From the NCBI GenBank assembly GCA_002269645.1, contig NIVC01002654.1, positions 57,371 to 103,667 of the forward strand: DNA of 46,297 bases, read 5' to 3'. Shown piece by piece: positions 3,673 through 39,303 of this stretch. The notes beneath the pieces were generated by a model that worked only from the letters and a program-made list of their open reading frames with translations, was not told the origin of the DNA and made no database searches. This DNA is from Macrostomum lignano. Lineage: Eukaryota. Within the stretch, counting starts at the first letter, position 1, and each line of letters opens with the position of its first letter. The position numbers and the translations under genes were made by a program.

Positions 3673-3859
3673 CTGCAAAGGAAAGTAGAGGGACTGAGTT
3701 ATGTTTAGATAGGAAGTTCAAGATCAAACTGAATCTGGCTTAGTAAGACTCTGGTTTGGACTCAAGACTACGAGTAAAAATCCCGTGTTTGTGAATTACT
3801 CATTCGTGAAAATTGACTCAATGATATTACAATTAGGCTGTATCTGCAACCAAACTCAC

Positions 3860-6580: not shown

Positions 6581-6675
6581 CTGAAAATTTCAGCAATTTT
6601 TTTGGCTTAAAGTGCTTTCTACGACTAAAGTTCCATGTCCTTTTCATCTATCTCAAGATTGAGAGTAAGTCTTAC

Positions 6676-7507
6676 TTGTCGAGATAATTTGGCAGCCAGA
6701 TTTGTTGGACAATGGAACGGTTTCGCTTTTCCTGCCCAGACGCCCAGGAAGTAATCAGCCAGACGAGAGTGAGTCGCCCGGGCGTGAGCAGAATCCACGA
6801 ACAGGTACTCACGCGCAACCTCCCAGAACTGCCTGTGGTACCAGAAAAAAACTCTGCTGGCATCGGCCTCTCTCTCGACAAGGTAGTCACCGATCTCGTG
6901 TCTCAGTCGCGTCCAGCAAAGTGGCGGCACTCGAATGAACGGCGGCAGGTGATGCGCGAATATCTCGCCCAGCACGTCCTCATCTAGAGACAGGAGGTCT
7001 TCCATTTCAACGTCGCTCAGACCGTTTCTAGACGCTGTGATGTAAGACAGCGAGTGGCGCACTAGCAGGGTGCCAAATTGCTTCTCCAGTCGACCGAAAA
7101 AGTGAATGATGGCGCCTCGAACTGTGTGCTGTAGACTTTCAATTGGCGTGTAGGATCGCCACTGCACAACCTCGTTGAACATCAGAGTCATGAAGATTGG
7201 CAGGCTGCACTCATTGAATGCGCTTTGCACCAGTTTCCATTGCGACGCAGTTAGGCATCGCCCTCGCGTTTCCAACATCTGCTGCACGATGCTGCAACAC
7301 AGCGACGGCTCCAGGCCGCGAACCTCGATGAAAGCGTCCGCATCGTTTTCAAGCAGCCTCTGGCACGTGTCCAGAATTCCGTGCAGCTCTGGTAAGCAGC
7401 TCAAAACCAACTTCATGTTGTTGGGCTGTTCAGCTCGCAGCCAGTTCAGCGAGTGAGCTCCATCTGATGCATCCAGCTGATCCAATGAATCCAAGAGCAC
7501 AAATATC
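6676..7507 (-). CDS. NWD1: NWD1-like exon 5 (NACHT C-terminal part; begins [13 protein letters not shown], Walker-B-like).
   Basis: ORF 6625..7596. Acceptor cttcag|G at about 7507 takes the 2 nt left over from the upstream exon. Donor CAA|GTAAGA at about 6676. Confidence 0.8.
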
Positions 7508-7578
7508 CTGAAGTTCGAAGGGGTAAGAAAAAGGTGTAATTGGAAAAATAAATCGAATGCTGCCATAGCCAAACTAAC

Positions 7579-8705
7579 CTCCGTCCTTGTTGGCACAATG
7601 TCTCAGCCATGCGGTAGAAGTTCTCTACAAGATCGCGGAAGTCCTCCAGCGTCTGTAGCAGCTCGGTCTCAGATTGAGACATAAATACCGCCATTTGCAG
7701 ACAAATAGATTTCAGAGTCTGTCGAATGCTGGATGACGCTGGACTTGTTCCCAGAAATCTCATAAAAATCAGAGCCTCGGATCGCTGCGACTGGGGAAGC
7801 CAGTCTCTGATCAAGACTCCGGCTCTCGCTAGCACGGATGTCTTGCCGCTGCCTGAGCAGCCGTAGATCACAACAGGGCGAGTTGACGGCCCCATCAGTT
7901 GGCGTTTCACAGCTTCCATGCAGCTCTGCCGACCTTGAAACTGTTTCACATAGCTCACACACTGGTGCGAGTGCTGCAGCACCTCTGTGTACAGACTGTC
8001 CGACTCCAGGCCAGACAGCTGATTCATGCCTCGATCGATCAACCGGCGCAGCTGAACCTCGAAATCGACCGCCAGCCGACCTTCGTAGTCCGCGTCGCCT
8101 TTGGTGACGGAGCTCCAAGTTACTCGATGCGTGACAATGTTGTCGGCCGGCAGCACGGCAGGCAGCTGCTGTTCCTTCAGTCTCTGAAGTTTCTCGAATG
8201 TTGCCTCATCTAAAGTGCCATCAGACAAAGTCTGTACAAATCTCGACACTGTTGAATCACCCGCCGCCACCTGCTGCTTCACATCTTCGATCTCTCGGCA
8301 AAACAACAGTGCATCTTGCCTACGACTATCTCTGCACTGAAAGACACCGTGAACAAACTCCAGGTGAGTGACAGATGCCGAGTAGCGCAGCGCCTGGTCT
8401 GGGCTCATCTCGCCCAACTCGACCGCCTCCTCCGCAGCAGCCGAGACCGCATCGATCAGCAGTCTCTCCTCGCTCCACCAGCCAGCTCGGGCCTCCTCCG
8501 CCTTGACCTCATCTCCATTGGCTAGCGACTCCGGACTCTGGAAGACAAACACCGGGTCGTCCGTCAGGTTCTCGTCCAGGCGGTACCACTTGTGCAGCAG
8601 AGCAAGCGTCGTATCGCTGCCGCTACTTTTGATTCTTCGCACTATAATCTCCATCTCAGATTGCTGGACCTTGTGTGGCAGCTGTCTTGAGCCGTAGCGG
8701 TGGCT
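7579..8705 (-). CDS. NWD1: NWD1-like exon 4: end of the N-terminal DUF4062-like region plus the NACHT P-loop ([19 protein letters not shown] at about 7815-7870).
   Basis: ORF 7446..8654 extended upstream to acceptor tttgatcag|GGGATT (about 8705). Donor AG|GTTAGT at about 7579. Walker A motif GxxxxGKT/S. Motifs ...[19 protein letters not shown]... recall NWD1. Confidence 0.8.
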
Positions 8706-11514: not shown

Positions 11515-11598
11515 TATAAAATAAACCGATGATTGATTTTGGCTGGCGATAAAGAAAACGAAGTTAGGGCGGTCGCAGCCCAGAATTCATTTTTTTCT
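11515..11598 (-). repeat. 3' LTR, about 84 bp (TGTTTAAGTTAGAAA...GGTTTATTTTATA on minus).
   Basis: About 90% identical to 14221-14320. Confidence 0.6.
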
Positions 11599-12044
11599 AA
11601 CTTAAACACAGGTCAATGGTTGGGCGTTGGCGGAGAAATATTATTTGAGTACATTGTGCGTACAGTGAAAATAGAGAAAATAACTTATGGATGAAACAGG
11701 CGGCTAGCTTAGGCCAACTCATTTTTTCGACACTCCTCCTTTTTCCTACGAATTCGAAAGTCGTGGGAAAGGACAAAAATAATGGTCTGAGGATTGAACC
11801 TCTAAAAAAATCAACGACTGGACTGGCCATCTCACCCGTTCCCAGCGCCGGGAATTCCCAGCACCCGCAACGCGAAGAAGAACCGAACGGATAGCACCAT
11901 CACGGCCAGGACGCACTTCCTCGACAATACCCAATTTCCACTTGAGTCTTGTTGTCGAGCTTCACCTGCCAGAAGAACCACTTCACCAACATTTGGTGAA
12001 CGGTGGTTTAGGTTGATCCTTTAGGGCTTTCTCGAGCAGAAACT

Positions 12045-14220: not shown

Positions 14221-14320
14221 TATAAAATAAACCGATAATTGATTTTGGCTGGCGACAAAGAAAACGAAGTTTGGGCGGTCGCAGCCCAGAATTCAGCTTT
14301 TATATTTTCTAACTTAAACA
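14221..14320 (-). repeat. 5' LTR, about 100 bp.
   Basis: Direct repeat of 11515-11598. Begins TGTTTAAG on minus. Confidence 0.6.
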
Positions 14321-14693: not shown

Positions 14694-15287
14694 TATACTG
14701 TCCGTCAAAAGTTCCGGAACCCTTGCTACGATGTCTTCTAGCGGACATAATTTCAGTCCGTTTCAATTGTAACTTGATTCAAATGAAAGCTGCGGATCTC
14801 AGCTCCATGATGTGGTCAAGAAAAAGTTTATTCGAAGGAGCGCGTGTGAACAGGCCAGTGTTATGTACATAAAGGTTAGAGAAAAAAGTGAGGAAAAGAC
14901 AAACAAGCAATTGTCTATGGTTGCTGAGTCTATGGAGCAAACACACATGGGAAGGAATCGGTTTGCGCGCAGTGTTCAGCCTGGCTAACATTAGTCTATG
15001 GCCAAAACTTGTGTTGAAATCAACAGGCTCTTATGGATTCTTGTGCAGTCAGCTTTCATGGGAGAGTCAATTGCTTGTTTGTCTTTTCCTCACTTTTTTC
15101 TCTAACCTTTATGTACATAACACTGGCCTGTTCACACGCGCTCCTTCGAATAAACTTTTTCTTGACCACATCATGGAGCTGAGATCCGCAGCTTTCATTT
15201 GAATCAAGTTACAATTGAAACGGACTGAAATTATGTCCGCTAGAAGACATCGTAGCAAGGGTTCCGGAACTTTTGACGGACAGTATA
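14694..15287. repeat. Perfect inverted repeat: arms 14694-14914 and 15067-15287 (221 bp, apparently 100% identical) with a 152-bp spacer.
   Basis: ORF-track proteins on opposite strands are identical: 14489..14872(+) = 15109..15291(-), and 14779..14991(-) = 14888..15202(+). Arm ends are TATACTGTCCGTCAAAAG / its reverse complement. Confidence 0.9.
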
Positions 15288-20338: not shown

Positions 20339-21873
<1,535 letters not shown>

Positions 21874-21904
21874 TTAAGACTGGTACCGGACGCCTGCAGT
21901 TTCA

Positions 21905-22759
<855 letters not shown>

Positions 22760-22790: not shown

Positions 22791-23612
<822 letters not shown>

Positions 23613-24249: not shown

Positions 24250-24740
24250 ATGTAGTCAGTCGATTAGTGTCATCAAACAGTGTCAGTCAAACAGTGTCAG
24301 TCAAACAGTGTCAGTCAAACAGTGTCAGTCAAACAGTGTCAGTCAAACAGTGTCAGTCAAACAGTGTCAGTCAAACAGTGTCAGTCAAACAGTGTCAGTC
24401 AATAAGTGTCAGTCAAACAGTGTCAGTCAAACAGTGTCAGTCAAACAGTGTCAGTCAAACAGTGTCAGTCAATAAGTGTCAGTCAAACAGTGTCAGTCAA
24501 TAAGTGTCAGTCAAACAGTGTCAGTCAAACAGTGTCAGTCAAACAGTGTCAGTCAAACAGTGTCAGTCAATAAGTGTCAGTCAAACAGTGTCAGTCAAAC
24601 AGTGTCAGTCAAACAGTGTCAGTCAAACAGTGTCAGTCAAACAGTGTCAGTCAAACAGTGTCAGTCAATAAGTGTCAGTCAAACAGTGTCAGTCAATTAG
24701 TGTCAGTCAAACAGTGTCAGTCAATAAGTGAATTAGTCAA
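24250..24740. repeat. Minisatellite, 14-bp unit (CAGTGTCAGTCAAA/ATAA variants).
   Basis: Tandem periodicity. The same family recurs at 26270-27370. Confidence 0.95.
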
Positions 24741-24787
24741 TCAGTCAATTAGCGCACAGCGCATTGCACAAGTGTCAGACTCCTTAC

Positions 24788-24889
24788 GAATTGGCGCAGC
24801 GAAGGTTGCCGAAGGAGCTGAAGGCGGCGCCTCATCAAACAGCAACGCGTCGAGATCGGCATCTTCATCTTCCTCAGGTTCCTCTTCGA
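24788..24889 (-). CDS. Mini-exon B1 (EEEPEEDEDADLDALLFDEAPPSAPSATFAAPI-R), phase 1-1.
   Basis: Acceptor ttttgcag|TC and donor C|GTAAGGAGT. Three homologous copies. Confidence 0.45.
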
Positions 24890-25259
24890 CTGCAAAAACA
24901 AGTAGCATGAATTGGCAATGCTGCAATCGCATCGATAAAATCATAACCACATTTTATACTTTTATATCAATAGAAAAATTGATTTTAGAATGAAGTTTTT
25001 TCCATTAGCATTATTTTACATTTTTCATCGCAATCCAATAATTCAGCATCTTCGCAGAACATGTCCAGCTCTAAGAGTTAAGGTGCAGCAGCGGCTTTAT
25101 GATTTATTGCAACCCGAATAACGATCATACTTGCAGATTAAAAACAAATACAAAAAGCATTGGCTGACCAGCATTATTCGCCAAAATATTGCCCCCGAGA
25201 TAATGGATAAATAATCAGCGGTCCCAGTGCGTGACAACGATTGTCTGGCGAGCGCCGGT

Positions 25260-26269: not shown

Positions 26270-27370
26270 AGAGATGTCAGTGTCAGTCAAACAGTGTCAG
26301 TGAAACAGTGTCAGTCAAACAGTGTCAGTCAAACAGTGTCAGTCAATTAGTGTCAGTCAATTAGTGTCAGTCAAACAGTGTCAGTCAATTAGTGTCAGTC
26401 AAACAGTGTCAGTCAAACAGTGTCAGTCAAAAAGTGTCAGTCAAACAGTGTCAGTCAAACAGTGTCAGTCAATTAGTGTCAGTCAAACAGTGTCAGTCAA
26501 ACAGTGTCAGTCAAACAGTGTCAGTCAAACAGTGTCAGTCAAACAGTGTCAGTCAAACAGTGTCAGTCAAACAGTGTCAGTCAAACAGTGTCAGTCAATT
26601 AGTGTCAGTCAAACAGTGTCAGTCAAACAGTGTCAGTCAAACAGTGTCAGTCAAACAGTGTCAGTCAAAAAGTGTCAGTCAAACAGTGTCAGTCAAACAG
26701 TGTCAGTCAATTAGTGTCAGTCAAACAGTGTCAGTCAATTAGTGTCAGTCAAACAGTGTCAGTCAAACAGTGTCAGTCAAATAGAGTCAGTCAATTAGTG
26801 TCAGTCAAATAGTGTCAGTCAAACAGTGTCAGTCAAACAGTGTCAGTCAAACAGTGTCAGTCAAACAGTGTCAGTCAAAAAGTGTCAGTCAAACAGTGTC
26901 AGTCAAACAGTGTCAGTCAAACAGTGTCAGTCAATTAGTGTCAGTCAAACAGTGTCAGTCAAACAGTGTCAGTCAAACAGTGTCAGTCAAAAAGTGTCAG
27001 TCAAATAGTGTCAGTCAAACAGTGTCAGTCAAACAGTGTCAGTCAATTAGTGTCAGTCAAATAGTGTCAGTCAAACAGTGTCAGTCAATTAGTGTCAGTC
27101 AAATAGTGTCAGTCAATTAGTGTCAGTCAAATAGTGTCAGTTAATTAGTGTCAGTCAAATAGTGTCAGTTAATTAGTGTCAGTCAAACAGTGTCAGTCAA
27201 ACAGTGTCAGTCAATTAGTGTCAGTTAATTAGTGTCAGTCAAACAGTGTCAGTCAAACAGTGTCAGTCAATTAGTGTCAGTCAATTAGTGTCAGTCAATT
27301 AGTGTCAGTCAATTAGTGTCAGTCAAACAGTGTCAGTCAATTTGTGTCAGTCAATTTGTGTCAGTCAAAC
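26270..27370. repeat. Minisatellite, 14-bp unit (CAGTGTCAGTCAAA), about 75 copies.
   Basis: Tandem periodicity. Confidence 0.95.
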
Positions 27371-27390
27371 ACTGTTCGTCAGACTCCTTA

Positions 27391-27490
27391 CGAATTGGCG
27401 CAGCGAAGGCAGCCGAATGAGCTGAAGGCGGCGCCTCATCAAACAGCGAAGTGCCAAAATCTTCATCATCTTCCTCAGATTCATCTGCGC
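27391..27490 (-). CDS. Mini-exon B2 (ADESEEDDEDFGTSLFDEAPPSAHSAAFAAPI-R), phase 1-1.
   Basis: Acceptor ttttgcag|GC and donor C|GTAAGGAGT. Confidence 0.45.
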
Positions 27491-27732
27491 CTGCAAAAAC
27501 AGGTACTCGTAGAAGGAATCGGCATTGCTGCAATCCTATTAAATAAAATCAAAAATGTATTCTATAAATTTCTAACCAATAGCAATTTCACATTTGTCAT
27601 CGCGATCCAGTAATGTAGCATCTTCGCAGCACATGTCCAGCTCTAAGAGTGCAGTTTAAGCAGAGGGTTTATGATTTATTGCAATTTAAATAATTCATAA
27701 TTGCAGATTAAAAAATACTAAAGTAGCATTGG

Positions 27733-27828
27733 CTGACCAGCATCCAGATCGAAATCATCGGAAGATTCAGAGGAGTCCTCGCTACCATCGCTGGGCCGTG
27801 CCACCGCAGCCCGGGGCGCATCTGCTGC
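27733..27828 (-). CDS. Mini-exon C-II (AADAPRAAVARPSDGSEDSSESSDDFDLDA), phase 1-1.
   Basis: Acceptor tcatatttccag|CT. The weak donor G|GTCAGCC is conserved in all three macro-repeat copies. Confidence 0.3.
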
Positions 27829-27899
27829 AGCTGGAAATATGACAAAAATATATAAATGCTTAAAGAAATGACCAATATAGTGACCACACACTTGCGACC

Positions 27900-29030
27900 A
27901 GAGAATGACCAGAATAGCGACTATGACCAATCTGATGATCAGATTAGAGACTATGACCAATCTGATGACCAGATTAGCGACTATGACCAATCTGATGACC
28001 AGATTAGCGACTATGACCAATCTGATGACCAGATTAGCGACTATGACCAATCTGATGACCAGATTAGCGACTATGACCAATCTGATGACCAGATTAGCGA
28101 CTATGACCAATCTGATGACCAGATTAGCGACTATGACCAATCTGATGACCAGATTAGCGACTATGACCAATCTGATGACCAGATTAGAGACTATGACCAA
28201 TCTGATGATCAGATTAGCGACTATGACCAATCTGATGACCAGATTAGCGACTATGACCAATCTGATGACCAGATTAGCGACTATGACCAATCTGATGACC
28301 AGATTAGCGACTATGACCAATCTGATGATCAGATTAGAGACTATGACCAATCTGATGACCAGATTAGCGACTATGACCAATCTGATGACCAGATTAGCGA
28401 CTATGACCAATCTGATGACCAGATTAGCGACTATGACCAATCTGATGATCAGATTAGAGACTATGACCAATCTGATGACCAGATTAGCGACTATGACCAA
28501 TCTGATGACCAGATTAGCGACTATGACCAATCTGATGACCAGATTAGAGACTATGACCAATCTGATGACCAGATTAGCGACTATGACCAATCTGATGACC
28601 AGATTAGCGACTATGACCAATCTGATGATCAGATTAGCGACTATGACCAATCTGATGACCAGATTAGCGACTATGACCAATCTGATGACCAGATTAGCGA
28701 CTATGACCAATTTGATGACCAGATTAGCGACTATGACCAATCTGATGACCAGATTAGCGACTATGACCAATCTGATGACCAGATTAGCGACTATGACCAA
28801 TCTGATGACCAGATTAGAGACTATGACCAATCTGATGACCAGCTTAGCGACTATGACCAATCTGATGACCAGATTAGCGACTATGACCAATCTAATGACC
28901 AGATTAGCGACTATGACCAATCTGATGACCAGATTAGAGACTATGACCAATCTGATGACCAGCTTAGCGACTATGACCAATCTGATGACCAGATTAGCGA
29001 CTATGACCAATCTAATGACCAGATTAGCGA
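27900..29030. repeat. Minisatellite, 30-bp unit (GACCAATCTGATGACCAGATTAGCGACTAT), about 38 copies.
   Basis: Tandem periodicity. The unit is a multiple of 3, so all frames stay open. Confidence 0.95.
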
Positions 29031-29460
29031 CAGAGACAGTGTCTGCTGTCTCCAATCCTGTTGTGTCTGCTGTCTCCAATCCTGTTGTGTCTGCTGTCTC
29101 CAATCTGTTGTCTGCTATCTCCAATCTGTTGTCTGCTGTCTCCAATCTGTTGTCTGCTGTCTCTAATCCTGTTGTGTCTGCTGTCTCCAATCCTGTTGTG
29201 TCTCTGTCTCCAATCCTGTTGTGTCTGCTGTCTCTAATCCTGTTGTGTCTGCTGTCTCCAATCCTGTTGTGTCTGCTGTCTCTAATCCTGTTGTGTCTGC
29301 TGTCTCCAATCCTGTTGTGTCTGCTGTCTCCAATCTGTTGTCTGCTGTCTCCAATCCTGTTGTGTCTGCTGTGTCCAATCCTGTTGTGTCTGCTGTGTCC
29401 AATCCCGTTGTGTCTGCTGTCTCCAATCCCGTTGTGTCTGCTGTCTCCAATCCTGTTGTG
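29030..29460. repeat. Minisatellite, 24-bp unit (TGTCTGCTGTCTCCAATCCTGTTG), about 18 copies.
   Basis: Tandem periodicity. Its reverse complement is the unit at 31620-32530. Confidence 0.95.
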
Positions 29461-29586
29461 TCTGCTGTATTGGCTTACGACAGCAAAAGAAATTTCTATT
29501 TTAAATTTTCACAGCATTAATCCCGATTTTCAGCTTGTAAAAAGGTACGTTAATAAAAAATTTGCGCATTGCATCAGACTTCTTAC

Positions 29587-29676
29587 GAGCTGGTGCCTGG
29601 TAGGCTGGTGACAGCGGCTCCTCAAACAGCGACCTGCCGTATTCATCAAAGTCATCTTCCTCAAATTCAGCTTTGC
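29587..29676 (-). CDS. Mini-exon B3 (KAEFEEDDFDEYGRSLFEEPLSPAYQAPA-R), phase 1-1.
   Basis: Acceptor tttttttgcag|GC and donor C|GTAAGAAGT. Confidence 0.45.
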
Positions 29677-29947
29677 CTGCAAAAAAACAGAATCAAAACG
29701 CAATGCTGCAAATCGTATCGAATAAACAAAATTATAAACAAATTCAATAATTTTCTAATCAATTCAAAGACGGATTTTACGTTGAAGTTTTTGCATTGAC
29801 ATTGCCTCGCAGGATTCCATGGATTCGGGCTCAAGGCAGAGGAATCTCGGCTCTATGAGTGCAGTTGAAGTAGCGGGTTTATGATTTATTGCAATTCGAA
29901 TAAGTCATAATTAGAGATTAAAAAACAAATACAAAAAGCATTGGCTG

Positions 29948-30062
29948 ACCATCATCAACATTCGACATCTTTTCAAGATCGGAAGCATCTGAATATTCAG
30001 AACGACTGCTTGGTTCTTCACTGCCTGCCGCCGCACCCCGTGGCACATCTGGTGCAGAAGAT
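29948..30062 (-). CDS. Mini-exon C-III (VVSSAPDVPRGAAAGSEEPSSRSEYSDASDLEKMSNVDD), phase 1-1.
   Basis: Acceptor cttacttttcag|CG and donor G|GTCAGCC. Confidence 0.3.
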
Positions 30063-30099
30063 ACTACCGCTGAAAAGTAAGTGATCAAAATGTTGAAAG

Positions 30100-31130
30100 G
30101 CTTAAATTAATGGCCAGTCTAATGACCAGATAAGCGATAATAACGAACTTAATGACCAGATAAGCGACAATGACCAACCCAGTGACCAGATAAGCGACAA
30201 TGACCAACCTAATGACCAGATAAGCGAGAACGACCAACCTAATGACCAGATCAGCGACAATGACCAACCTAATGACCAGATAAGCGATAATAACGAACTT
30301 AATGACCAGATAAGCGACAATGACCAACCCAGTGACCAGATAAGCGACAATGACCAACCTAATGACCAGATAAGCGACAATGACCAACCCAGTGACCAGA
30401 TAAGCGACAATGACCAACCTAATGACCAGATAAGCGAGAACGACCAACCTAATGACCAGATCAGCGACGACCAACCTAATGACCAGATAAGCGATAATAA
30501 CGAACTTAATGACCAGATAAGCGACAATGACCAACCCAGTGACCAGATAAGCGACAATGACCAACCTAATGACCAGATAAGCGAGAATGACCAACCTAAT
30601 GACCAGATAAGCGAGAATGACCAACCTAATGACCAGATAAGCGATAATAACGAACTTAATGACCAGATAAGCGACAATGACCAACCTAATGACCAGATAA
30701 GCGAGAATGACCAACCTAATGACCAGATCAGCGACAATGACCAACCTAATGACCAGATAAGCGATAATAACGAACTTAATGACCAGATAAGCGACAATGA
30801 CCAACCTAATAACCAGATAAGCGACAATGATCAACCTAATAACCAGATAAGCGAGAATGACCAACCTAATGACCAGATAGGCGACAATGACCAACCTAAT
30901 GACCAGATAAGCGACAATGACCAACCTAATCACCAAATAAGCGAGAATGACCAACCTAATGACCAGATAGGCGACAATGACCAACTTAATGACCAAATAA
31001 GCGACAATGACCAACCTAATGACCAGATAAGCGACAATGACCCATATATTAATCAGATAAGCGACAATGACCCATTTATTGATCAGATTAAAAACGATGA
31101 CCGATTTACTAACCAGGTAAGCGACGATGA
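30100..31130. repeat. Minisatellite, 30-bp unit (GACCAACCTAATGACCAGATAAGCGACAAT), about 34 copies. About 83% similar to the 27900-29030 unit, same orientation.
   Basis: Tandem periodicity. Confidence 0.95.
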
Positions 31131-31309
31131 CTAATTTAATGACCAGATATGAGCGAATGCCTCATCTAATGATTAACCGTCAGTGATATATCTAATGACG
31201 CTATCGAAGCAGCACTATGACCAATCTAATTACTAGATTTGAGACAATGACAAATTAAAGGACTATTAAACACAATGACCGCTTCGATGACTGAAAATTA
31301 GCAGCTCAC

Positions 31310-31570
31310 CTCCCAGTTTGAGTCCGGCAGCTTCGCGGCCAACGTAGACATCTTTCTGGCCCATGCCGACCATGACGCCCTGGTGACGAGGCCGGCCAAC
31401 CACGGTAGGGACGCTGGCCAAGAGGTTGGACCGGTTCGACATCACGGCAGCTTTGGTTAGAAGCGAGCCGGAGTCCAACACCAGAGCCGGTTCGTCATTC
31501 CAGGAGTCTTCGTCCCGGTCATTGTCATCGTCAGATGATTCAGCAGAAGCTGCTGCCAGGAGAGGCATAT
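31310..31570 (-). CDS. Actin-derived exon, phase 1-1: an acidic leader plus [59 protein letters not shown] (actin residues about 8-66, including phosphate-1 loop and D-loop).
   Basis: ORF 31266..31568. Acceptor atgatctgcag|AT and donor GGAG|GTGAGC. A 17-residue stretch, [17 protein letters not shown], is identical to conventional actin. Confidence 0.55.
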
Positions 31571-31619
31571 CTGCAGATCATATTGTAAGCTCTTACCGGT
31601 TATATTTGACATTTGACTC

Positions 31620-32530
31620 GCTTGACCGGGGAAGGAGACAGCAGACACAACAGAATTGGAGACAGCAGACACAACAGGATTGGAGACGGCAGACACAAGA
31701 TGATTGGAGACAGCAGACACAATAGGATTGGAGACAGCAGACACAACAGGATTGAAGACGGCAGACACAATAGGATTGGAGACAGCAGACACAACAGGAT
31801 TGGAGACAGCAGACACAATAGGATTGGAGACAGCAGACACAACAACATTAGAGACAGCAGACACAACAACATTAGAGACAGCAGACACAACAAGATTGGA
31901 GACAGCAGACACAACAACATTGGAGACAGCAGACACAACAAGATTGGAGACAGCAGACACAACAGGATTGGAGACAGCAGACACAACAGGATTGGAGACA
32001 GCAGATACAACAAGATTGGAGACAGCAGACACAACAACATTGGAGACAGCAGACACAACGGGATTGGACACAGCAGACACAACAACATTGGAGACAGCAG
32101 ACACAACAACATTGGAGACAGCAGACACAACAGGATTGGAGACAGCAGACAACAGGATTGGAGACAGCAGACACAACAAGATTGGAGACAGCAGACACAA
32201 CAGGATTGGAGACAGCAGACACAACAGCTTTGGAGACAGCAGACACAATAGGATTGGAGACAGCAGACACAACGGGATTGGAGACAGCAGACACAACAAC
32301 ATTGGAGACAGCAGACACAACAGGATTGGAGACAGCAGACACAACAGGATTGGAGACAGCAGACACAACAAGATTGGAGACAGCAGACACAACAAGATTG
32401 GAGACAGCAGACACAACAAGATTGGAGACAGCAGACACAACAGGATTGGAGACAGCAGACAACAGATTGGAGACAGCAGACACAACAGGATTGGAGACAG
32501 CAGACACAACAGCATTGGAGACGGCAGACA
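31620..32530. repeat. Minisatellite, 24-bp unit (CAACAGGATTGGAGACAGCAGACA), about 38 copies. Inverted orientation relative to the 29030-29460 array.
   Basis: Tandem periodicity. Its reverse complement equals the 29030-29460 unit. Confidence 0.95.
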
Positions 32531-32585
32531 CAATAGGAACAGGTAGCAGATTTAAGCTCAAAGGTTTCCTTCAAATTTTTCTCAC

Positions 32586-32906
32586 GTTTTATTTTTCGCC
32601 GTTTCATTTTTTTAGCAGCCTCGGTTGGTTTGACAGCTTTTTCGGCCTCTGGTGAAGGGCCACGTCCGCCGCGTAGACGCATCACCAGGTGAACGGTGCA
32701 GCCCGGCGTCAGCCCTGCACTGGCAACAGTCCAGTCTGATTCCAGCTGCTTTCCGTCAGCAACTAAACGAATCTGATCCACTGGGATGCGCTGCCGTTCG
32801 CTTATTGCCTCCTTGAGCTCAAGAATATTTTGATTGGGCGTAAGGCTAACTGTGAACTCTTCGCTAGTGAGCGTTCTCACTTTGACGGTGAATTTAGATG
32901 GAAGAG
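32586..32906 (-). CDS. Ubiquitin-like domain exon (KFTVKVRTLTSEEFTVSLTPNQNILELKEAISERQRIPVDQIRLVADGKQLESDWTVASAGLTPGCTVHLVMRLRGG plus a basic KKMKRRKIK tail), phase 1-1. Spliced downstream of the PARP4-like C-terminal exons.
   Basis: ORF 31600..32880 extended upstream to acceptor cattccgcag|CT (about 32906), matching the phase-1 donor of the exon at 32998-33199. Beta-grasp pattern and C-terminal RLRGG. Candidate donor AAAC|GTGAGA at about 32586. Confidence 0.6.
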
Positions 32907-32997
32907 CTGCGGAATGAACAGGCTATTTCTGTACAATTTTTTGTCTAAATAAAAAATCTAACAAGCAATAACATCGAAAAAAAAATCTCAGACTCAC

Positions 32998-33199
32998 ATT
33001 TAGCATCAGCTTGCCGCATTTGTGCGGCTTTCCGATTCTGTTTAACAGACAGCACCACCGGGTGCTTGTCGTGAACGCCGGCCAAAAGCAGCGAAGCTTC
33101 CAGATCGTCAAACAGCCGAAGAGCTTCTTCGCTCTTTCCGGTGTTTGACAACTCCTGACCATCAATGATACCGTCGGCAATTTGCGCGAGAATTTCCGC
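32998..33199 (-). CDS. PARP4: PARP4-like exon 15 (AEILAQIADGIIDGQELSNTGKSEEALRLFDDLEASLLLAGVHDKHPVVLSVKQNRKAAQMRQADAK).
   Basis: Acceptor ttttttag|GCG and donor AAAT|GTGAGT. Phase 0-1. Confidence 0.6.
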
Positions 33200-33367
33200 C
33201 TAAAAAATTTAGACGAGTCATTATGAGAGTAACTATCCATATTGAGTTCTTTTTAATTCTGCGTCATTATAAAGTTTACTTTACGAGAAGGAAAAATGCC
33301 TCGTCAACTCCTTCCTTATAAAGAGGTAAAAAATTGGGACAAATGCCTCGTCATCTAACAAACTCAC

Positions 33368-33484
33368 AAGCCCGTCGCCAGCCTCCTTGATCGGTTCCCA
33401 GCCCTGTGTGGCTAAGATATCAACCTTCTCGTCGTCTAGCAAAGTTTGCAATCGGCCAGTCATGTCCGATTCAAATTTTTCGTC
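33368..33484 (-). CDS. PARP4: PARP4-like exon 14 (DEKFESDMTGRLQTLLDDEKVDILATQGWEPIKEAGDGL; compare human ...EDVDFLPYMSWQGEP...).
   Basis: Acceptor tttctgacag|GAC and donor CTT|GTGAGT. Confidence 0.65.
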
Positions 33485-33603
33485 CTGTCAGAAATAGATA
33501 GCATTTACAATTAGTATATAACAATACCGGTCAGACAAACCTTAGAGATTTAGTATATTGTGAAAGTGTGCTACTATATCATAAGGATAACGATTTCATC
33601 TAC

Positions 33604-33705
33604 CTTTTCACGATCCTCAACCGCTACGAAGCTGGTAAATTGGCAAGCCACTGAGTAGCGAATCGATAATTGAACCAGGTTGGCCTTCTGCTCCAGTCGC
33701 TTCAG
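33604..33705 (-). CDS. PARP4: PARP4-like exon 13 (LKRLEQKANLVQLSIRYSVACQFTSFVAVEDREK; compare human LKSLIIKLSKENSLITQFTSFVAVEKRDE).
   Basis: Acceptor tttacag|CTG and donor AAG|GTAGAT. Phase 0-0. Confidence 0.7.
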
Positions 33706-34060
33706 CTGTAAATTTGATTGGGTTTGCTAATTTGTCACCTTTGAAATCTCAAATGAGTATACCTATTTTTATAGCTCTCTACCAATACGTTTATTGTGAA
33801 CCTAATACGAGAATAACTTCAGTGGTGAACGCATCTGACTTTCGCACCAAAGACCCCAGGTTCGATTATGTGCGCGACCGCACATCACGCCAACAACACA
33901 AGAGCCAACCACGGGGGTCAGAACTGCTTGGCTCTTTAAATGACTGCATGTCGCCATGAGTTGCGACAGTTTCTCAAGTCAGAACTTCATTTATATTAAA
34001 TCATCTTTTCTTAGAAACTCTCCGATTTAACTCTACCGACTTTTCCGACTTTTTAGTTAC

Positions 34061-34757
34061 CTGATGCAGAGCCGGATCGGTATCCAAGCTGCCAGCCTCC
34101 CAGTCGGCAATGAGGCTCCTAGCAGCCAGGGCGTGCACCATGGAGCCGGTGGTAAAGCATAGCTCGCTAGTGAACACCGTGCAGCTGACTCGACAGTCGC
34201 CAGCTTTGGCATGCAGTGTCGCTCGTTGACATCCGCGACCTTCGCGCGGCATCAAGCCATAGACAATCAAGCGCTGACCGTTGAACAGAGCCGACGGACA
34301 AGCAGGCGCTTGGCGCACTACAGACAACTCCTGACTGTCACTGTTGTCATCATCGTCGTCAAGATGCCACTCAACGCTGAGCTCGGTAAGCGCCGGCGCG
34401 GTGAGCCGAGCAATCAGCTCGTCGGCCAATGCAGACCATTTTGAACGTCTGGCCGGGTCGAAAAATTCCACGGAACCGCCGGAACCGGCAGCTCCGGCCA
34501 GCGATCGGAGCCGGTGCCGGTCTGGCGAGGGTCCAACCGAGCAGGCCAGCAAACGCAGGTGCTTGTTAGCACCTGAAGCGGCGACAGCCAGTGTAGCCTC
34601 TTTCGCTTCGTAGTGTCCGTCAGAAATCAGCAGCACCGCGTGCGGTCCGAATTCGCGCAGTTGAGCCAGGTAAGCCAGGTAATTAGAAAGATTTGTGCCA
34701 CCCATATTGGGTTTTGAGGCTCGGATGAATTCTAGACAGCGATTCTGGACGCTTTTC
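34061..34757 (-). CDS. PARP4: PARP4-like exon 12: second half of the VWA domain plus the post-VWA region (GGTNLSNYL...LLISDGH...FNGQRLIVYGLM...HALAARSLIADWEAG).
   Basis: ORF 34001..34705. Acceptor ttttccag|G at about 34757 and donor CAG|GTAACT at about 34061. Strong similarity to human PARP4/VWA5A. Confidence 0.8.
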
Positions 34758-35294
34758 CTGGAAAATTTATAACTCGTGAAGTCAGCAAATGGAATTTTTG
34801 CAGTTTAAAAGACACCAAGAACGAAAATTTAAATGCACCTTTTTAATAGATGCAGTGAACACTATATTAACGAAAAATGGTCCTTTTAGAAAAAATGCTA
34901 TATGCTATTTAAAAATGGTACGCTTGAATGTTAAACTCGGAGTTTACAACATTTGACCGCCGACCCAATAGCCCAGACCCTAATCTGAATTGTCGGCAGT
35001 CAGGATTGTCTTTTTACCACATATTTAAAGAAATCTAGTTACTTTATAGCGCAAATTTAAAATGAATTTTATCAGATATCAAGAGTCTTTACTGTTTACT
35101 CTTTATGTACTCTTTAACGTATTGTACTTCCTGCTTTCAAAGCAAACAGAGATCGGTCTTAATGATTGTGGGAAGTATAGTTTCAAATGTCGGTTTTTCG
35201 TTTACAAAATACAAGGTCAAAACACAATATTTTTAGATTTATCAAAGAAAGTTGCTTCCAAGACAGAAACTATAGTGTAAAAAAGGAGTGAAAG

Positions 35295-35490
35295 AGGGGG
35301 GGGGCGTAGCCCAGTGGTCTAACGCAGCGGTCTGATGTGTCAGCGGCCCATGCTCGAGTTCAAGTGCAGTCACATTTATTTTAGGGCTCAATTGAAATCT
35401 CGGCTTGGCTCTGCTCGTGCAATTAACGCCCTTGAGGCCCAACCCCCGAAGCACAGTGAACTTACATGCCTAACGATAAATAAAGATAAT
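35295..35490 (+). mobile_element. tRNA-derived SINE copy 2 (about 195 bp, 3'-truncated relative to copy 1). It is intronic and abuts the exon-11 splice donor.
   Basis: A G9 run, then GCGTAGCCCAGTGGTCTAACGCAGCGG...GCTCGAGTTCAAGTGCAG, then a body shared with copy 1. Confidence 0.65.
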
Positions 35491-35496
35491 TCTCAC

Positions 35497-35891
35497 CTGC
35501 CGACCGGCTGTGGCAGCGCAAAGCAATCCTCGAACTGCGATCCGAACCGAGCCACGTTGACTCGAGTCCGCGCCGGCAGATGCCGCAACAGCAGCGCCGC
35601 CAGCCGCCTGGCGTCCACGCTTGGCTCGCCAGCCATTGAGCGGCTGCAATCTAACGCCAGGGTGACAACTCCGGAGCAATCCGAGGACGCTGACGATTCG
35701 AACTCTGGGTAGAAGCACACCATCAGAGCGTCGGGACCGCTGGATTGCAGCGAGTCGTCGGGCCGTTCGACCCACAGTCGGGGCGCGTTTATCTCGGCTA
35801 GGGACACCTCGAGGCGGAAGCCAAGCTCGCCGAGAGTCTGCTGTTGGCCCGGTGCCAGGCGAACAACCGAACAGGTCTCCGTGCGCTTCAC
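35497..35891 (-). CDS. PARP4: PARP4-like exon 11: end of VIT plus the start of VWA (VVTLALDCSRSMAG MIDAS motif).
   Basis: ORF 35493..35891. Acceptor tgcaaacag|GTG and donor GGCAG|GTGAGA (phase 2). Confidence 0.8.
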
Positions 35892-36039
35892 CTGTTTGCA
35901 GCATTCAGAAACTCACAGTTCTAGTTGCGCTAGAGCTCAGTTATTTAAACTTATACTAGTAGCATTCATATTGATTTTTAGTTACTTTTTCCAACACCTC
36001 TACCAACTAACGACAACAAAAATGAATCTCCCTGTCCCC

Positions 36040-36620
36040 CACTCTCTCCCTATCCCTCCCCCACTCTCTCCCTATCCTTCCCCCACTCTCTCCCTATCCT
36101 TCCCCCACTCTCTCCCTATCCCCCCCCACTCTCTCCCTATCCCTCCCCCACTCTCTCCCTATCCCTCCCCACTCTCTCCCTATCCTTCCCCCACTCTCTC
36201 CCTATCCCTCCCCCACTCTCTCCCTATCCTTCCCCCACTCTCTCCCTATCCCTCCCCACTCTCTCCCTATCCTTCCTCCACTCTCTCACCATCCCTCCCC
36301 ACTCTCTCCCTATCCTTCCCCACTCTCTCCCTATCCCTCTCCCACTCTCTCCCTATCCCTCTCCCACTCTCTCCCTATCCCTCTCCCACTCTCTCCCTAT
36401 CCCTCCCCACTCTCTCCCTATCCCTCTCTCTCCCTATCCCTCTCCCACTCTCATCCCTCTCCCACTCTCTCCCTATCCCTCCCCACTCTCATCCCCTCTC
36501 TCTCCCTATCCTTATCTACTCTCATCCCTCTCCTCCCTATTTTCAGCACTCTCACCCCTCTCTTCTCCTATCCCTCCCCCACAATCATCCCTTTCTCCCT
36601 GTCCATCACCCTCTCACCCC
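36040..36620. repeat. CT-rich minisatellite, about 21-22-bp unit (CTCTCCCTATCCCTCCCCCACT). Intronic. A further CT-rich low-complexity block lies at 37330-37480.
   Basis: Tandem periodicity. Confidence 0.9.
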
Positions 36621-36731
36621 TCTAACTCCGCATCCATCACCCTCTCACCCGCCCTGTGCTTCTCGCTCTTTTTTGCTAACAACTTTTTGCGCAGATTTGT
36701 AAAAAGCACCTGAAAAGTTTAAAATTTAAAC

Positions 36732-37235
36732 CTGAATCTCATGCGTTGGTGATATTAATCCCCTGATAGGATATGGCATCCTCAGACCGGCCTCCAGACT
36801 GAAAGCTCCAACTGGTCGTCTCACGGCGGCCGTGTCTGTCACCTGCTGCAGGCTGTCATCAGCCGCTGAGGCCGTCTGCCAGGGCGCCGCGCTGCCGGGC
36901 AAGCCGAAGATCACCGCCTCGCCGCTTGGCTTCAACTCGCAGACGTAGCGAATTTTAATCAAAGCCGCCGTCCTTGCCGGCAGGTTGCCAATGGAAACGG
37001 TGAACACGTCGGGACTTTCGGCGGCCTGCTCCATCAGGTAGGCGCCTTTGCCGGCTGACACGGCTTCGCGATACTCGCGCCTGGCTTTCTCCTTCTCCTT
37101 GACAACTCCGACTACTCGTTTGGCGCCGATGTAGGCTTCGAAACCGCACACCGCGGCGCCTTCGCTCAGGGGAAACACGTAGCGAGCCTCCACAGGTGAG
37201 CTGCCAGTGTTGAAGAACTCTTGGAGCAGGACCAC
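36732..37235 (-). CDS. PARP4: PARP4-like exon 10: VIT domain (ARYVFPLSEGAAVCGFEAYIGAKRVVGVVKEKEKARREYREAV...DVFTVSIGNLPARTAALIKIRYVCEL).
   Basis: ORF 36726..37277. Acceptor ccgcccag|GTG and donor CAG|GTTTAA. Near-colinear with the human PARP4 VIT domain. Confidence 0.8.
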
Positions 37236-37717
37236 CTGGGCGGTTGCAGAGAGAGGGAGGGGTGCAGGGGTCCGCAAACTCCGGCCCGCAAAGCCTCTCT
37301 ATCCGGCCCTCGGTTCTTTGAAACTTCACAATAGCAATCCAACCCGATCAAGGTTTGAGTCTCTTCTCAGGTCTCTCTCTCCCCCCTCTTCTACCTTTTC
37401 TCTTCTCTCCGCTCCGCTTCTCTCTACTCATCTCCCTTCTCTTCTCGTTCGTCTTCCCTCTCCTTGTTCCCTTCAATTCTATCATATCATCTGACCTGCA
37501 GTAATGATCAAAACTCTTCATCTGGCGATTAGAAACTGAGGGCCGATGTACACCTGTGTGAGCCTGCGTACAGTATCCGCAGGAGTCAGGGGCGATGGCT
37601 GCAGGCCAGTGTCACCGATTGCGTTGGATAATTGTTTATTATTCCTCAATGTTGCCACAACCTTTTCTACACTTATTATCCAACTGTCAAAACTGTGGCT
37701 AAAATATTTTTTATTCT

Positions 37718-38318
37718 TACCTGAGCCACCAAGTCCACCAGGTTGGCGCGCACGTGCACCGAACGCAACGGCATTGGAGGTCCGCCCGAGTCGCTTAGCA
37801 ACCCAAACTTTTGATCCGCAATTCGAATATTCAACTCCAGATCGGTCAAATCCTCCACCTCGTCGTCTGATTCTTCATCATCAGGGATGCTGCACTGTTC
37901 CATCGTTGCCAGATTATCCATAGGCCGATCGCCGTCCAAATAGAACTCCACAATGTACTCGAGCTTCTGCTGGGCCGAATCAAACACTGCGAACTCGCGA
38001 TCGCTGAAGCCATTGTCATCATCAGCGTTGTTGGCTCCCGTCGAGATTGGAATCGACTCGACGCTCTGACAGTCAGCGGAGGTTGGTGAGCAGGCGGCGG
38101 CAGGCAGCGGCTGAGACACCCGCTGCACCCGGCCCAGGGCGACCGAGCACACCAGAGCCACGCGGCAGCCCAGGCCGGAGCCGTCGGCGCGGGGAGGCTC
38201 CGAATATTTGGCGGCCACCTCGATGTTGTCGGCGAAGTAGATCCCGCGGCCGAGCTTGCCTGCGTGTCGGCGGTGCAGCAGCTGCTGGCCGGCTGGCAGG
38301 CGAGGCGGCAGGAGGCCT
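37718..38318 (-). CDS. PARP4: PARP4-like exon 9: second half of the PARP catalytic domain (GRGIYFAD...EFAVFDSAQQKLEYIVEF) plus the start of VIT.
   Basis: ORF 37676..38335. Acceptor cctcgcag|A completes AGA with the AG left by exon 8. Donor CAG|GTAAGA. Confidence 0.8.
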
Positions 38319-38399
38319 CTGCGAGGGGTTATCATTCAGGATTTTAGGGACTCAAGACGGAGTTTGGTAGAGAGCTAAAAGCGCTGTACAAGAGCGCTA

Positions 38400-38465
38400 A
38401 GATAGACAGACAGACACACAGACACACAGACAGACACACACAGACAAACAGACAGACAGACACAC

Positions 38466-38554
<89 letters not shown>

Positions 38555-38575
38555 TAGACAGACAGACAGACAGAC

Positions 38576-38672
<97 letters not shown>

Positions 38673-38683
38673 CTAAGACACTA

Positions 38684-38724
<41 letters not shown>

Positions 38725-38735
38725 CTAAGACACTA

Positions 38736-38776
<41 letters not shown>

Positions 38777-38851
38777 CTCTGACAGACAGACAGACACACA
38801 GACAGACAGACACACACACAGACAGACAGACAGACAGGCAGACAGACAGGC

Positions 38852-38919
<68 letters not shown>

Positions 38920-38930
38920 TGACTGACAGA
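38400..38930. repeat. (GACA)n microsatellite with CACA/TAGACA variants, in the intron between PARP4-like exons 8 and 9.
   Basis: Direct observation. Same motif and orientation as 20790-21640. Confidence 0.95.
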
Positions 38931-39013
38931 CAGAATCCCAACACTGTTGTGAATGCAGGGGAGCGCTTCAAACTATCTATTACTACAAGCAGTACCGCCA
39001 GGCGCCATCTCAC

Positions 39014-39303
39014 CTAGACAAAATGCCCACCAGATTCCTGCCAGACGAGCCATGAAACAGCAGCCGCACGTTTCCCAAATCTCGTCGAAAAACGGCGGCC
39101 TCTTCGCGTCGACCGACGGAGAAAATCCGGCGAACATTGGCGCCGGAGCCGATGCTGGATTCGTCGATTAATCGACGAACGACGGCCTCCTCGTCTGGGT
39201 CGGCCCGCTGGACAAATGCTTTGAGTGCGCGGCGCTTCACCGAGGCTGGGGGTGACGGGCGCCAATTCGAGGCCTCCGTCACAGATAGAAGGTCGCGCAT
39301 CAG
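39014..39303 (-). CDS. PARP4: PARP4-like exon 8: PARP catalytic H-G-S region ([38 protein letters not shown]).
   Basis: ORF 39010..39342. Acceptor ctttctcccag|CTG and donor AG|GTGAGA. Aligns with human VFRVGRVNETTEFLSKLGNVRPLLHGSPVQNIVGILCRGL. Confidence 0.8.

What the first reader, a model, noticed from the sequence alone, without database searches (positions are those of the whole stretch)
29030..32530. Inverted minisatellite arrays (24-bp unit) flanking a same-orientation pair of 30-bp arrays
The 24-bp unit at 29030-29460 is the exact reverse complement of the unit at 31620-32530, 2.2 kb away. The 30-bp arrays at 27900-29030 and 30100-31130 are about 83% similar and co-oriented.

Inverted long arrays can extrude hairpins or cruciforms, cause replication slippage, or give rise to double-stranded RNA when transcribed through, as they would be inside this gene's introns. 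The arrangement suggests the macro-unit duplicated with one segment inverted.
Basis: seen in the sequence. Interest (0 to 1): 0.55.

Follow-up and report, generated by a model that had tools for sequence, protein, structure and literature searches.

The report
Inverted intronic minisatellites in flatworm PARP gene
Two arrays of the same 24-bp repeat sit in opposite orientation in two introns of a Macrostomum lignano PARP-family gene; they are real and could zip the pre-mRNA into a ~420-bp duplex, but this is an ordinary by-product of a very repeat-rich genome.

Summary
Array A (29039-29468) and array B (31634-32538) have 24-bp consensus units that are exact reverse complements. The match runs along the whole arrays and stops at their edges. 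The 30-bp arrays (27905-29031 and 30119-31149) are co-oriented and about 80% identical (consensus 26/30).

The window is Macrostomum lignano. A 1196-aa UniProt gene model (A0A1I8HY60, PARP-VIT-vWA) matches its minus-strand exons at 95-100% in most blocks. All four arrays lie in canonical GT-AG introns, which are 83-89% minisatellite.

The exon core E1-Ex-E2 is present three times (71-74% by BLAST, about 80% over aligned columns). The order 24-bp array, 30-bp array, E1-Ex-E2 recurs twice, so a macro-unit duplication is plausible. The 24-bp arrays are nevertheless more alike than the modules (24/24 consensus, shared rare variants). They were therefore recopied or homogenised later.

ViennaRNA predicts about 421 A-B base pairs in the pre-mRNA, with helices up to 71 bp. 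This duplex brackets four phase-1 exons (543 nt), the known geometry for exon skipping, circRNA or siRNA formation. None of these outcomes was tested. A DNA cruciform is unlikely, given the 2.17-kb spacer and about 10% divergence.

Verdict: a real feature, a new member of a known kind, of modest interest.

The parts
29039..29468 (.). 24-bp minisatellite array A. About 18 units; plus strand reads GTGTCTGCTGTCTCCAATCCTGTT. In the minus-strand pre-mRNA it is purine-rich (AACAGGAUUGGAGACAGCAGACAC). It includes four 21-bp deletion-variant units.
   Evidence: TRF; unit list; pattern search
31634..32538 (.). 24-bp minisatellite array B. About 38 units; plus strand reads GGAGACAGCAGACACAACAGGATT, the reverse complement of A. 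It fills 89% of the 1,015-nt intron upstream of the actin-like exon.
   Evidence: TRF
27905..29031 (.). 30-bp minisatellite array A (37.6 units, 96% internal matches). It abuts 24-bp array A through a 7-bp junction.
   Evidence: TRF
29032..29038 (.). Junction between the 30-bp and 24-bp arrays (CAGAGACAG|TGTCTG...). GAGACAG is a fragment of the unit in the opposite (B) orientation, so it can pair with CTGTCTC of the first A unit. This is a possible fold-back or template-switch scar, but 7 bp could arise by chance.
   Evidence: read directly from the sequence
30119..31309 (.). 30-bp minisatellite array B (34.5 units, 87% matches, to 31149) plus its degenerate tail at 31150-31309, which reaches the donor site of the actin-like exon. 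It is co-oriented with 30-bp array A.
   Evidence: TRF; tail z = 13.5
32586..32880 (-). Ubiquitin-like exon (at least 295 nt; its upstream end at 32880 is an ORF limit without an AG acceptor, so the 5' boundary is unresolved), with donor GTGAGA. It is in frame with the next exon but is skipped in gene model A0A1I8HY60.
   Evidence: Pfam PF00240 E = 1.7e-17
31310..31570 (-). Exon 'actinN' (261 nt, phase 1-1). It encodes an acidic stretch followed by actin residues about 3-58. It is the first of the four exons bracketed by the inverted arrays.
   Evidence: tblastn; P0121 match; splice sites
29950..30069 (-). Exon E1c (120 nt, phase 1-1), paralogous to E1b.
29781..29852 (-). Exon Exc (72 nt, phase 1-1).
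29587..29676 (-). Exon E2c (90 nt, phase 1-1), the last exon bracketed by the inverted arrays. The intron downstream of it (29586-27831) holds 24-bp array A and 30-bp array A and is 89% array.
27392..27830 (-). Module b: exons E1b 27738-27830 (93 nt), Exb 27577-27642 (66 nt) and E2b 27392-27490 (99 nt), separated by array-free introns of about 85-95 nt. It is paralogous to module c (29587-30069) and module a (24774-25174).
   Evidence: array-masked self-BLAST

Best explanation
What it is (shown). These are intron-filling minisatellites in the tandemly duplicated C-terminal exon-module region of a Macrostomum lignano PARP-VIT-vWA gene on the minus strand.

How it arose. A module of about 2.2 kb, reading 24-bp array, 30-bp array, then exons E1-Ex-E2 in gene order, was duplicated in tandem (shown for the exon core and the 30-bp arrays). 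The 24-bp array now sits in two introns 2.17 kb apart in opposite orientation. Homology stops at the array edges. The arrays have identical consensus units and share rare variants, whereas the modules are only about 80% identical. The pair was therefore either recopied in inverted orientation after the module duplication or kept alike by gene conversion between the arrays (inferred).

Likely consequence (inferred, not tested). In the pre-mRNA, the pyrimidine-rich copy (B, transcribed first) and the purine-rich copy (A) have little self-structure. They are predicted to pair into an imperfect duplex of about 420 bp. This duplex loops out four phase-1-symmetric exons (actinN, E1c, Exc, E2c; 543 nt). 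That is the geometry by which reverse-complementary intronic matches promote exon-block skipping and back-splicing, and the duplex is long enough to be a Dicer substrate. By default I regard it as a neutral by-product of minisatellite turnover. A DNA-level cruciform is unlikely.
For: - Array identity and orientation.
- Species and gene: P0121 (UniProt A0A1I8HY60, M. lignano) matches window exons at 95-100% in most blocks (three blocks, 60-92%, run over intron or the terminal array) and is colinear from 39303 to 27354.
- Splicing: seven GT-AG exons with lengths divisible by 3 give an open spliced ORF that reproduces the model's sequence.
- Intron content: the array-bearing introns of this gene are 66-89% array, 83-89% for the three that hold these arrays.
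- Genome background: simple and tandem repeats make up 15% of the M. lignano genome (PMC5730564). This window is 25% arrays.
- Module triplication.
- No homology in the flanks.
- Shared minor variants: the 21-bp double-deletion unit, AACGGGATT, GGACAC and AGAGAC all occur in both arrays.
- RNA pairing: cofold -872 against -125 kcal/mol; the co-oriented control gives -151; 421 of 430 nt of A pair with B; helices up to 71 bp in the MFE of 3,751 nt.
[quoted passage not shown] Dicer genes are described across flatworms in a survey that included M. lignano (PMC5594548).
Against: - No RNA or small-RNA data could be examined, so the duplex and any splicing effect are predictions only.
- Intron B could be spliced out before array A is transcribed 2.2-3.5 kb later.
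- The gene model includes all four bracketed exons in linear order, so skipping is at most partial.
- The origin is ambiguous. Conserved array order favours one macro-duplication, while the 24/24 identity favours a later event. The statistical contrast is modest and post hoc (P about 0.005-0.035).
- Array lengths and orientation rest on a single assembly of a genome that is hard to assemble.
Confidence: 0.65

Rival explanations
1. Selected RNA device. The inverted arrays are maintained by selection as an intramolecular zipper. They would regulate inclusion of the actin-like/acidic exon block, drive a circRNA, or act as an intronic hairpin-RNA locus that produces endo-siRNAs.
For: The 24-bp arrays have stayed identical in consensus while the neighbouring exons and introns diverged to about 80%. 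The predicted duplex is very strong and has no competing self-structure. All bracketed exons are phase 1-1, so skipping the block keeps the reading frame. There is a mechanistic precedent (PMC8330042).
Against: Identity can be explained by recent copying or gene conversion without selection. Minisatellites fill the other long introns of this gene too. Four other array pairs in the window are simply co-oriented. No expression data or cross-species conservation could be checked.
Confidence: 0.13
2. Mobile or dispersed satellite. The 24-bp array belongs to a genome-wide repeat family, for example the internal satellite of a transposon. It would have landed independently in two introns in opposite orientation.
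For: Homology ends at the array borders with no shared flanks. The window carries other dispersed and foldback-type repeats.
Against: No terminal repeats or target-site duplications are visible around either array. The 24-mer occurs nowhere else in the 46-kb window. The array order 24 then 30 then E1 is repeated in both modules, which independent insertion would produce only by chance.
Confidence: 0.1
3. Assembly artefact. The inverted orientation or the length of one array would result from misassembly of long noisy reads in a repeat-rich, partly duplicated genome.
For: M. lignano is reported as hard to assemble because of simple repeats and duplicated chromosomes (PMC5730564). A perfect 223-nt palindrome-like repeat elsewhere in the window shows that such structures are present in this assembly.
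Against: The 2.17 kb between the arrays is unique, non-palindromic sequence. It carries four exons in the order and strand given by an independent gene model. The arrays differ in variant composition and length, unlike a fold-back read artefact.
Confidence: 0.07
4. Coding repeats. The arrays, whose periods of 24 and 30 are multiples of 3, would encode peptide repeats that belong to the protein.
For: Long ORFs cross the arrays in several frames on both strands.
Against: Units of 21, 22 and 23 bp shift the frame inside both 24-bp arrays. Canonical splice sites remove the arrays, and the spliced ORF matches the UniProt model exactly. Array-derived peptides in all six frames found nothing in the protein database.
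Confidence: 0.02

Closest known systems
Reverse-complementary matches (e.g. inverted Alu pairs) in introns flanking circularised or skipped exons
   Same: Two reverse-complementary sequences lie in different introns of one pre-mRNA. They bracket exons with canonical splice sites. The predicted intramolecular duplex loops those exons out (PMC8330042).
   Different: The arms are minisatellite arrays rather than transposon copies or short unique matches. The duplex is much longer (about 420 bp, and able to slide in 24-nt register). No back-splice or skipping product has been observed here.
Hairpin-RNA (hpRNA) endo-siRNA loci of Drosophila, some built from inverted tandem repeats
   Same: A long inverted repeat made of tandem units, transcribed as one RNA that can fold into long dsRNA.
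   Different: This pair is intronic within a protein-coding gene and has a 2.2-kb loop containing exons. The arms are about 90% matched. No small RNAs were tested.
Ordinary intronic minisatellites (VNTRs) spread by local segmental duplication
   Same: Units of 24 and 30 bp in head-to-tail arrays of 0.4-1.1 kb, homogeneous in the centre and degenerate at the edges. They are shared between tandemly duplicated modules.
   Different: One family is in inverted orientation, and it is more similar between its copies than the surrounding duplicated sequence.
Cruciform-forming or fragile long inverted repeats and palindromes
   Same: Inverted repeat with arms of at least 430 bp.
   Different: The spacer is 2,165 bp and the arms are about 10% diverged. 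Both features lower the chance of structure formation (PMC10164571 abstract).

Membership tests
Minisatellite (VNTR-type tandem array) | Head-to-tail tandem copies of a 10-100 bp unit along the whole tract | tested here: met
   TRF gives periods of 24 and 30, with 18.5-37.9 copies and 87-96% matches. Units are listed one by one.
Inverted repeat pair | Reverse-complementarity along the whole arms, beyond chance | tested here: met
   446 bp at 89.9% and 443 bp at 91.4%. 207 nt ungapped at 95%. 0 forward against 369 of 419 reverse 12-mers shared. Shuffles give 0 hits.
Intronic reverse-complementary matches that drive circRNA or exon skipping | The two arms lie in different introns of the same pre-mRNA and flank exons with canonical splice sites | tested here: met
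   Gene model A0A1I8HY60 is colinear across both arrays. All exons have GT-AG sites.
Intronic reverse-complementary matches that drive circRNA or exon skipping | Observed back-splice junction or skipped isoform that depends on the arms | not testable with these tools
   No RNA-seq data were available. The UniProt model shows only the linear isoform that includes the exons.
hpRNA / endo-siRNA locus | Transcript folds into long dsRNA | tested here: met
   In silico only: 421 intermolecular pairs, -872 kcal/mol, helices up to 71 bp.
hpRNA / endo-siRNA locus | 21-23-nt small RNAs from both arms with a Dicer signature | not testable with these tools
   No small-RNA data. Dicer genes are described across flatworms in a survey that included M. 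lignano (PMC5594548).
Cruciform-prone / fragile DNA palindrome | Short spacer and near-identical arms | tested here: not met
   The spacer is 2,165 bp and arm identity is 90-95%.
Inverted segmental duplication | Inverted homology extends into unique flanking sequence | tested here: not met
   Local alignments of the flanks score no better than shuffles. No relic 30-bp units lie next to array B.
Transposon-borne satellite (MITE, foldback, Helitron-type) | Terminal repeats or target-site duplication around the array, and further dispersed copies | tested here: inconclusive
   None were seen in the window. The metagenome and prokaryote scans found nothing and are uninformative here.

The most novel reading that the evidence does not exclude
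Minisatellite arrays, rather than transposons, would serve as selected reverse-complementary 'zippers' in M. lignano introns. This pair would be kept identical by selection or conversion. It would control inclusion or circularisation of a 543-nt block of actin-like and acidic exons in a PARP-VIT-vWA gene, or feed an intronic hairpin into the siRNA pathway.
Probability: 0.12. Interest if true: 0.5.

Novelty: new member of a known kind. Interest (0 to 1): 0.25.

Why it matters
If the predicted 420-bp intronic duplex forms in vivo, it would be a clean natural case of minisatellite-based, copy-number-variable complementary arms controlling exon skipping, circRNA or siRNA output. M. lignano is a transgenesis-capable flatworm, so the arms could be deleted to test this. 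If the duplex does not form, the locus simply illustrates how tandem repeats inflate introns and spread by local duplication in a genome that is 15% simple and tandem repeat. It also marks a place where assemblies and gene models should be checked with long reads.

Tried and rejected
- Arrays as coding repeats: rejected. Frame-shifting units, canonical splicing and a match to the UniProt model argue against it. A search with array peptides in all six frames found nothing, although HMMER's bias filter may have contributed.
- Inverted homology in the flanks, and relic 30-bp units next to array B: none found.
- Colinear order of variant units between A and B: rejected. The longest ungapped match puts the 21-bp units in register, but the neighbouring substitution variants do not correspond. 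This is alignment selection, not evidence of colinearity.
- Fetching the paralogous or allelic locus: failed. P0001 is not on record, and the M. lignano hits are UniRef-only with no contigs.
- Scans of metagenome and prokaryote genome contigs with the 24-mer: 0 hits. These collections do not hold flatworm genomes, so the result is uninformative.
- Rfam over the whole window: no family.
- Search for the remaining actin exons: only the N-terminal fragment exists in the window.
- A larger palindrome built from the GA-rich (23005-23586) and CT-rich (36035-36642) arrays and the two AGAC arrays: rejected. There is no significant inverted match, and the AGAC arrays are co-oriented.
Full report
OBSERVATION

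Tandem Repeats Finder finds a 24-bp array A at 29039-29468 (18.5 copies, 93% matches, GTGTCTGCTGTCTCCAATCCTGTT). It finds a 24-bp array B at 31634-32538 (37.9 copies, 92%, GGAGACAGCAGACACAACAGGATT). After rotation the two consensus units are exact reverse complements. The similarity runs along the whole arrays. 369 of 419 12-mers of A occur in the reverse complement of B and none in B read forward. Self-BLAST gives minus-strand matches of 446 bp at 89.9% and 443 bp at 91.4%, and the longest ungapped arms are 207 nt at 95%. The unit with up to 3 mismatches occurs 48 times, only in these two arrays, against 0 in shuffles.

The 30-bp arrays lie at 27905-29031 (96% internal matches) and 30119-31149 (87%). 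They are co-oriented, about 80% identical by BLAST and 26/30 in consensus. The second array continues as degenerate units to 31309.

CONTEXT

The window is eukaryotic, and the recognisable genes are on the minus strand. Pfam finds PARP, VIT, VWA, ubiquitin, HSP70, MFS and NWD1/STAND domains in minus-strand ORFs. A protein search with concatenated exons returned Macrostomum lignano proteins. P0121 (UniProt A0A1I8HY60, 'Poly [ADP-ribose] polymerase', 1196 aa) aligns colinearly to window exons from 39303 down to 27354, at 95-100% identity in most blocks (three blocks, 60-92%, run over intron or the terminal array). The window is thus M. lignano.

I placed splice sites by eye and checked them by script. 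The exons are:
- Ub-like exon, 32586-32880 (upstream boundary unresolved)
- actinN, 31310-31570 (261 nt)
- E1c, 29950-30069 (120 nt)
- Exc, 29781-29852 (72 nt)
- E2c, 29587-29676 (90 nt)
- E1b, 27738-27830 (93 nt)
- Exb, 27577-27642 (66 nt)
- E2b, 27392-27490 (99 nt)

From actinN onward every exon has an AG acceptor and a GT donor, and a length divisible by 3 (phase 1-1). The Ub-like exon has a GT donor (GTGAGA), but its upstream end at 32880 is only an ORF limit (the preceding bases are gtcaaa), and its 295 nt are not divisible by 3. The spliced sequence is open and reproduces the C-terminal sequence of P0121. That model skips the Ub-like exon.

Array B therefore lies in the intron just upstream of actinN. 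30-bp array B lies in the intron between actinN and E1c. 24-bp array A and 30-bp array A together lie in the intron between E2c and E1b. These three introns are 83-89% array, with only 110-209 nt of other sequence, while the neighbouring array-free introns are 83-103 nt.

Wudarski et al. report that simple and tandem repeats make up 15% of the M. lignano genome and hamper its assembly (PMC5730564). This window is 25% arrays. Intronic minisatellites are thus normal for this genome.

ORIGIN

After masking the arrays, self-BLAST shows that the E2-Ex-E1 core is present three times: 24774-25174, 27378-27830 and 29614-30057. Identity is 71-74% by BLAST and about 79-83% over aligned columns. In gene orientation the order 24-bp array, 30-bp array, E1, Ex, E2 occurs twice.

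Three things do not fit a single 'duplication with inversion' event:
- Homology ends at the borders of the 24-bp arrays. Flank alignments in every orientation score like shuffles, and no relic 30-bp units adjoin array B.
- In the upstream copy the two array types are separated by the actinN exon.
- The 24-bp consensus units are identical at 24/24, whereas the 30-bp consensus units differ at 4/30 and the modules are about 80% identical. The probability of 24/24 is about 0.005 at 80% and about 0.035 at 87% (and arithmetic).

The arrays also share rare variants. These include a 21-bp unit carrying two separate deletions (GGAGACAGCAGACAACAGATT), an AACGGGATT unit, and GGACAC and AGAGAC starts. B has in addition its own abundant variants (AACAACATT, AACAAGATT, AATAGGATT). 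The order of variants is not colinear.

I infer that the 24-bp pair exchanged sequence after the module duplication. This could have been a later inverted copy, for example through a template switch. The A-side junction CAGAGACAG|TGTCTGCTGTCTC contains a 7-nt piece in the opposite orientation, which is suggestive only. Alternatively it could reflect non-crossover gene conversion between the inverted arrays. A crossover would flip the four intervening exons and break the gene.

The other shared-unit array pairs in the window are co-oriented: the 23-bp, AGAC and 14-bp pairs and the 30-bp pair.

P0001 is a second M. lignano protein, 92% identical over actinN. It carries the same exon order, including both E1/E2 modules. 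The module duplication therefore predates that paralogue or allele.

CONSEQUENCES

In the minus-strand pre-mRNA, B is pyrimidine-rich and A is purine-rich, and each has weak self-structure (-108 and -17 kcal/mol). Cofolding gives -872 kcal/mol, with 421 of the 430 nt of A paired to B. A control with A placed in the co-oriented sense gives -151. In the MFE structure of the 3,751-nt segment 32650-28900, the same 421 A-B pairs form, with uninterrupted helices up to 71 bp.

This duplex would loop out actinN, E1c, Exc and E2c (543 nt). Because all exons are phase 1-1, skipping the block keeps the frame. [quoted passage not shown] Dicer genes are described across flatworms in a survey that included M. 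lignano, and RNAi-amplification genes were found only in M. lignano (PMC5594548).

These steps are inference. No transcript, circRNA or small-RNA data could be examined. Intron B may also be removed before A is transcribed.

At the DNA level, a 2,165-bp spacer and about 10% divergence make hairpin or cruciform formation unlikely under normal replication. [quoted passage not shown]

RIVALS

- Selected RNA device, 0.13.
- Dispersed or mobile satellite inserted twice, 0.10.
- Assembly artefact, 0.07. The unique, exon-bearing, non-palindromic 2.17-kb spacer, and its agreement with an independent gene model, argue against this.
- Coding repeats, 0.02. Frame-shifting units and splicing argue against this.

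COMPARISON AND VERDICT

Structurally this is an ordinary minisatellite family. Its geometry is that of intronic reverse-complementary matches such as inverted Alu pairs, or of hairpin-RNA loci built from inverted tandem repeats. It meets the sequence-level criteria for those kinds, but the expression-level criteria could not be tested. It fails the criteria for a cruciform-prone palindrome and for an inverted segmental duplication with flanks.

It is a real feature and a new member of a known kind. Interest is modest (0.25) unless RNA data show that the zipper is used.

DEAD ENDS

- No DNA for paralogous loci could be fetched.
- Scans of metagenome and prokaryote contigs were empty and are uninformative.
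- Rfam found nothing.
- The search with array peptides found nothing.

Noticed in passing
window 14694-14916 and 15065-15287: A perfect inverted repeat: 223-nt arms, 100% complementary, 148-nt spacer, with termini TATACTGTCCG...CGGACAGTATA. It could be a foldback or MITE-like element, or a palindromic assembly artefact. It is a much better hairpin or cruciform candidate than the finding itself.
   Followed up: partly
window 31310-31570 (minus) and 32586-32880 (minus): An exon encoding only actin residues about 3-58 ([17 protein letters not shown] conserved) follows, in frame, a ubiquitin-like exon inside a PARP-VIT-vWA gene. No other actin exon exists in the window. Gene model A0A1I8HY60 skips the Ub-like exon. 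Ub-actin fusion proteins of chlorarachniophytes appeared among the hits (P0003, P0005-P0007).
   Followed up: partly
L001 3001-6519; window 21902-22651 (minus): An intronless 1172-aa protein on an ENA metagenome contig combines VIT, vWA, ubiquitin and HSP70 domains (P0123, 35% identity). The window has an HSP70 substrate-binding-domain exon downstream on the same strand. The M. lignano gene may therefore once have extended, or may still extend, to an HSP70 domain.
   Followed up: partly
window 27392-39303 (introns of the PARP gene model): Five of the twelve introns examined are 66-89% minisatellite, with only 110-316 nt of other sequence. In the module region the array-free introns are 83-103 nt. 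There, intron length is set almost entirely by array expansion.
   Followed up: yes
window 27392-31570 (minus): All seven exons from actinN to E2b have lengths divisible by 3 (261, 120, 72, 90, 93, 66, 99) and are phase 1-1. This is consistent with exon-module duplication that preserves the reading frame.
   Followed up: yes
window 24255-24752 and 26278-27375; 20804-21642 and 38400-38934; 1858-2235 and 2609-2996: Three other array families occur twice in the window, and all are co-oriented: a 14-bp unit CAGTGTCAGTCAAA, (AGAC)n, and a 23-bp unit. The 14-bp arrays occupy equivalent positions downstream of E2a and E2b.
   Followed up: partly
window 2405-2596 vs 35296-35488; 11515-11608 vs 14221-14320: Short dispersed repeats: a 197-bp inverted match at 81% and a 100-bp direct match at 91%. 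They are probably transposon fragments.
   Followed up: no
window 3833-8654 (minus): Long minus-strand ORFs (904, 323 and 402 aa) carry NWD1-like winged-helix and STAND NTPase domains, indicating a large NACHT/STAND-type gene with few or no introns.
   Followed up: no
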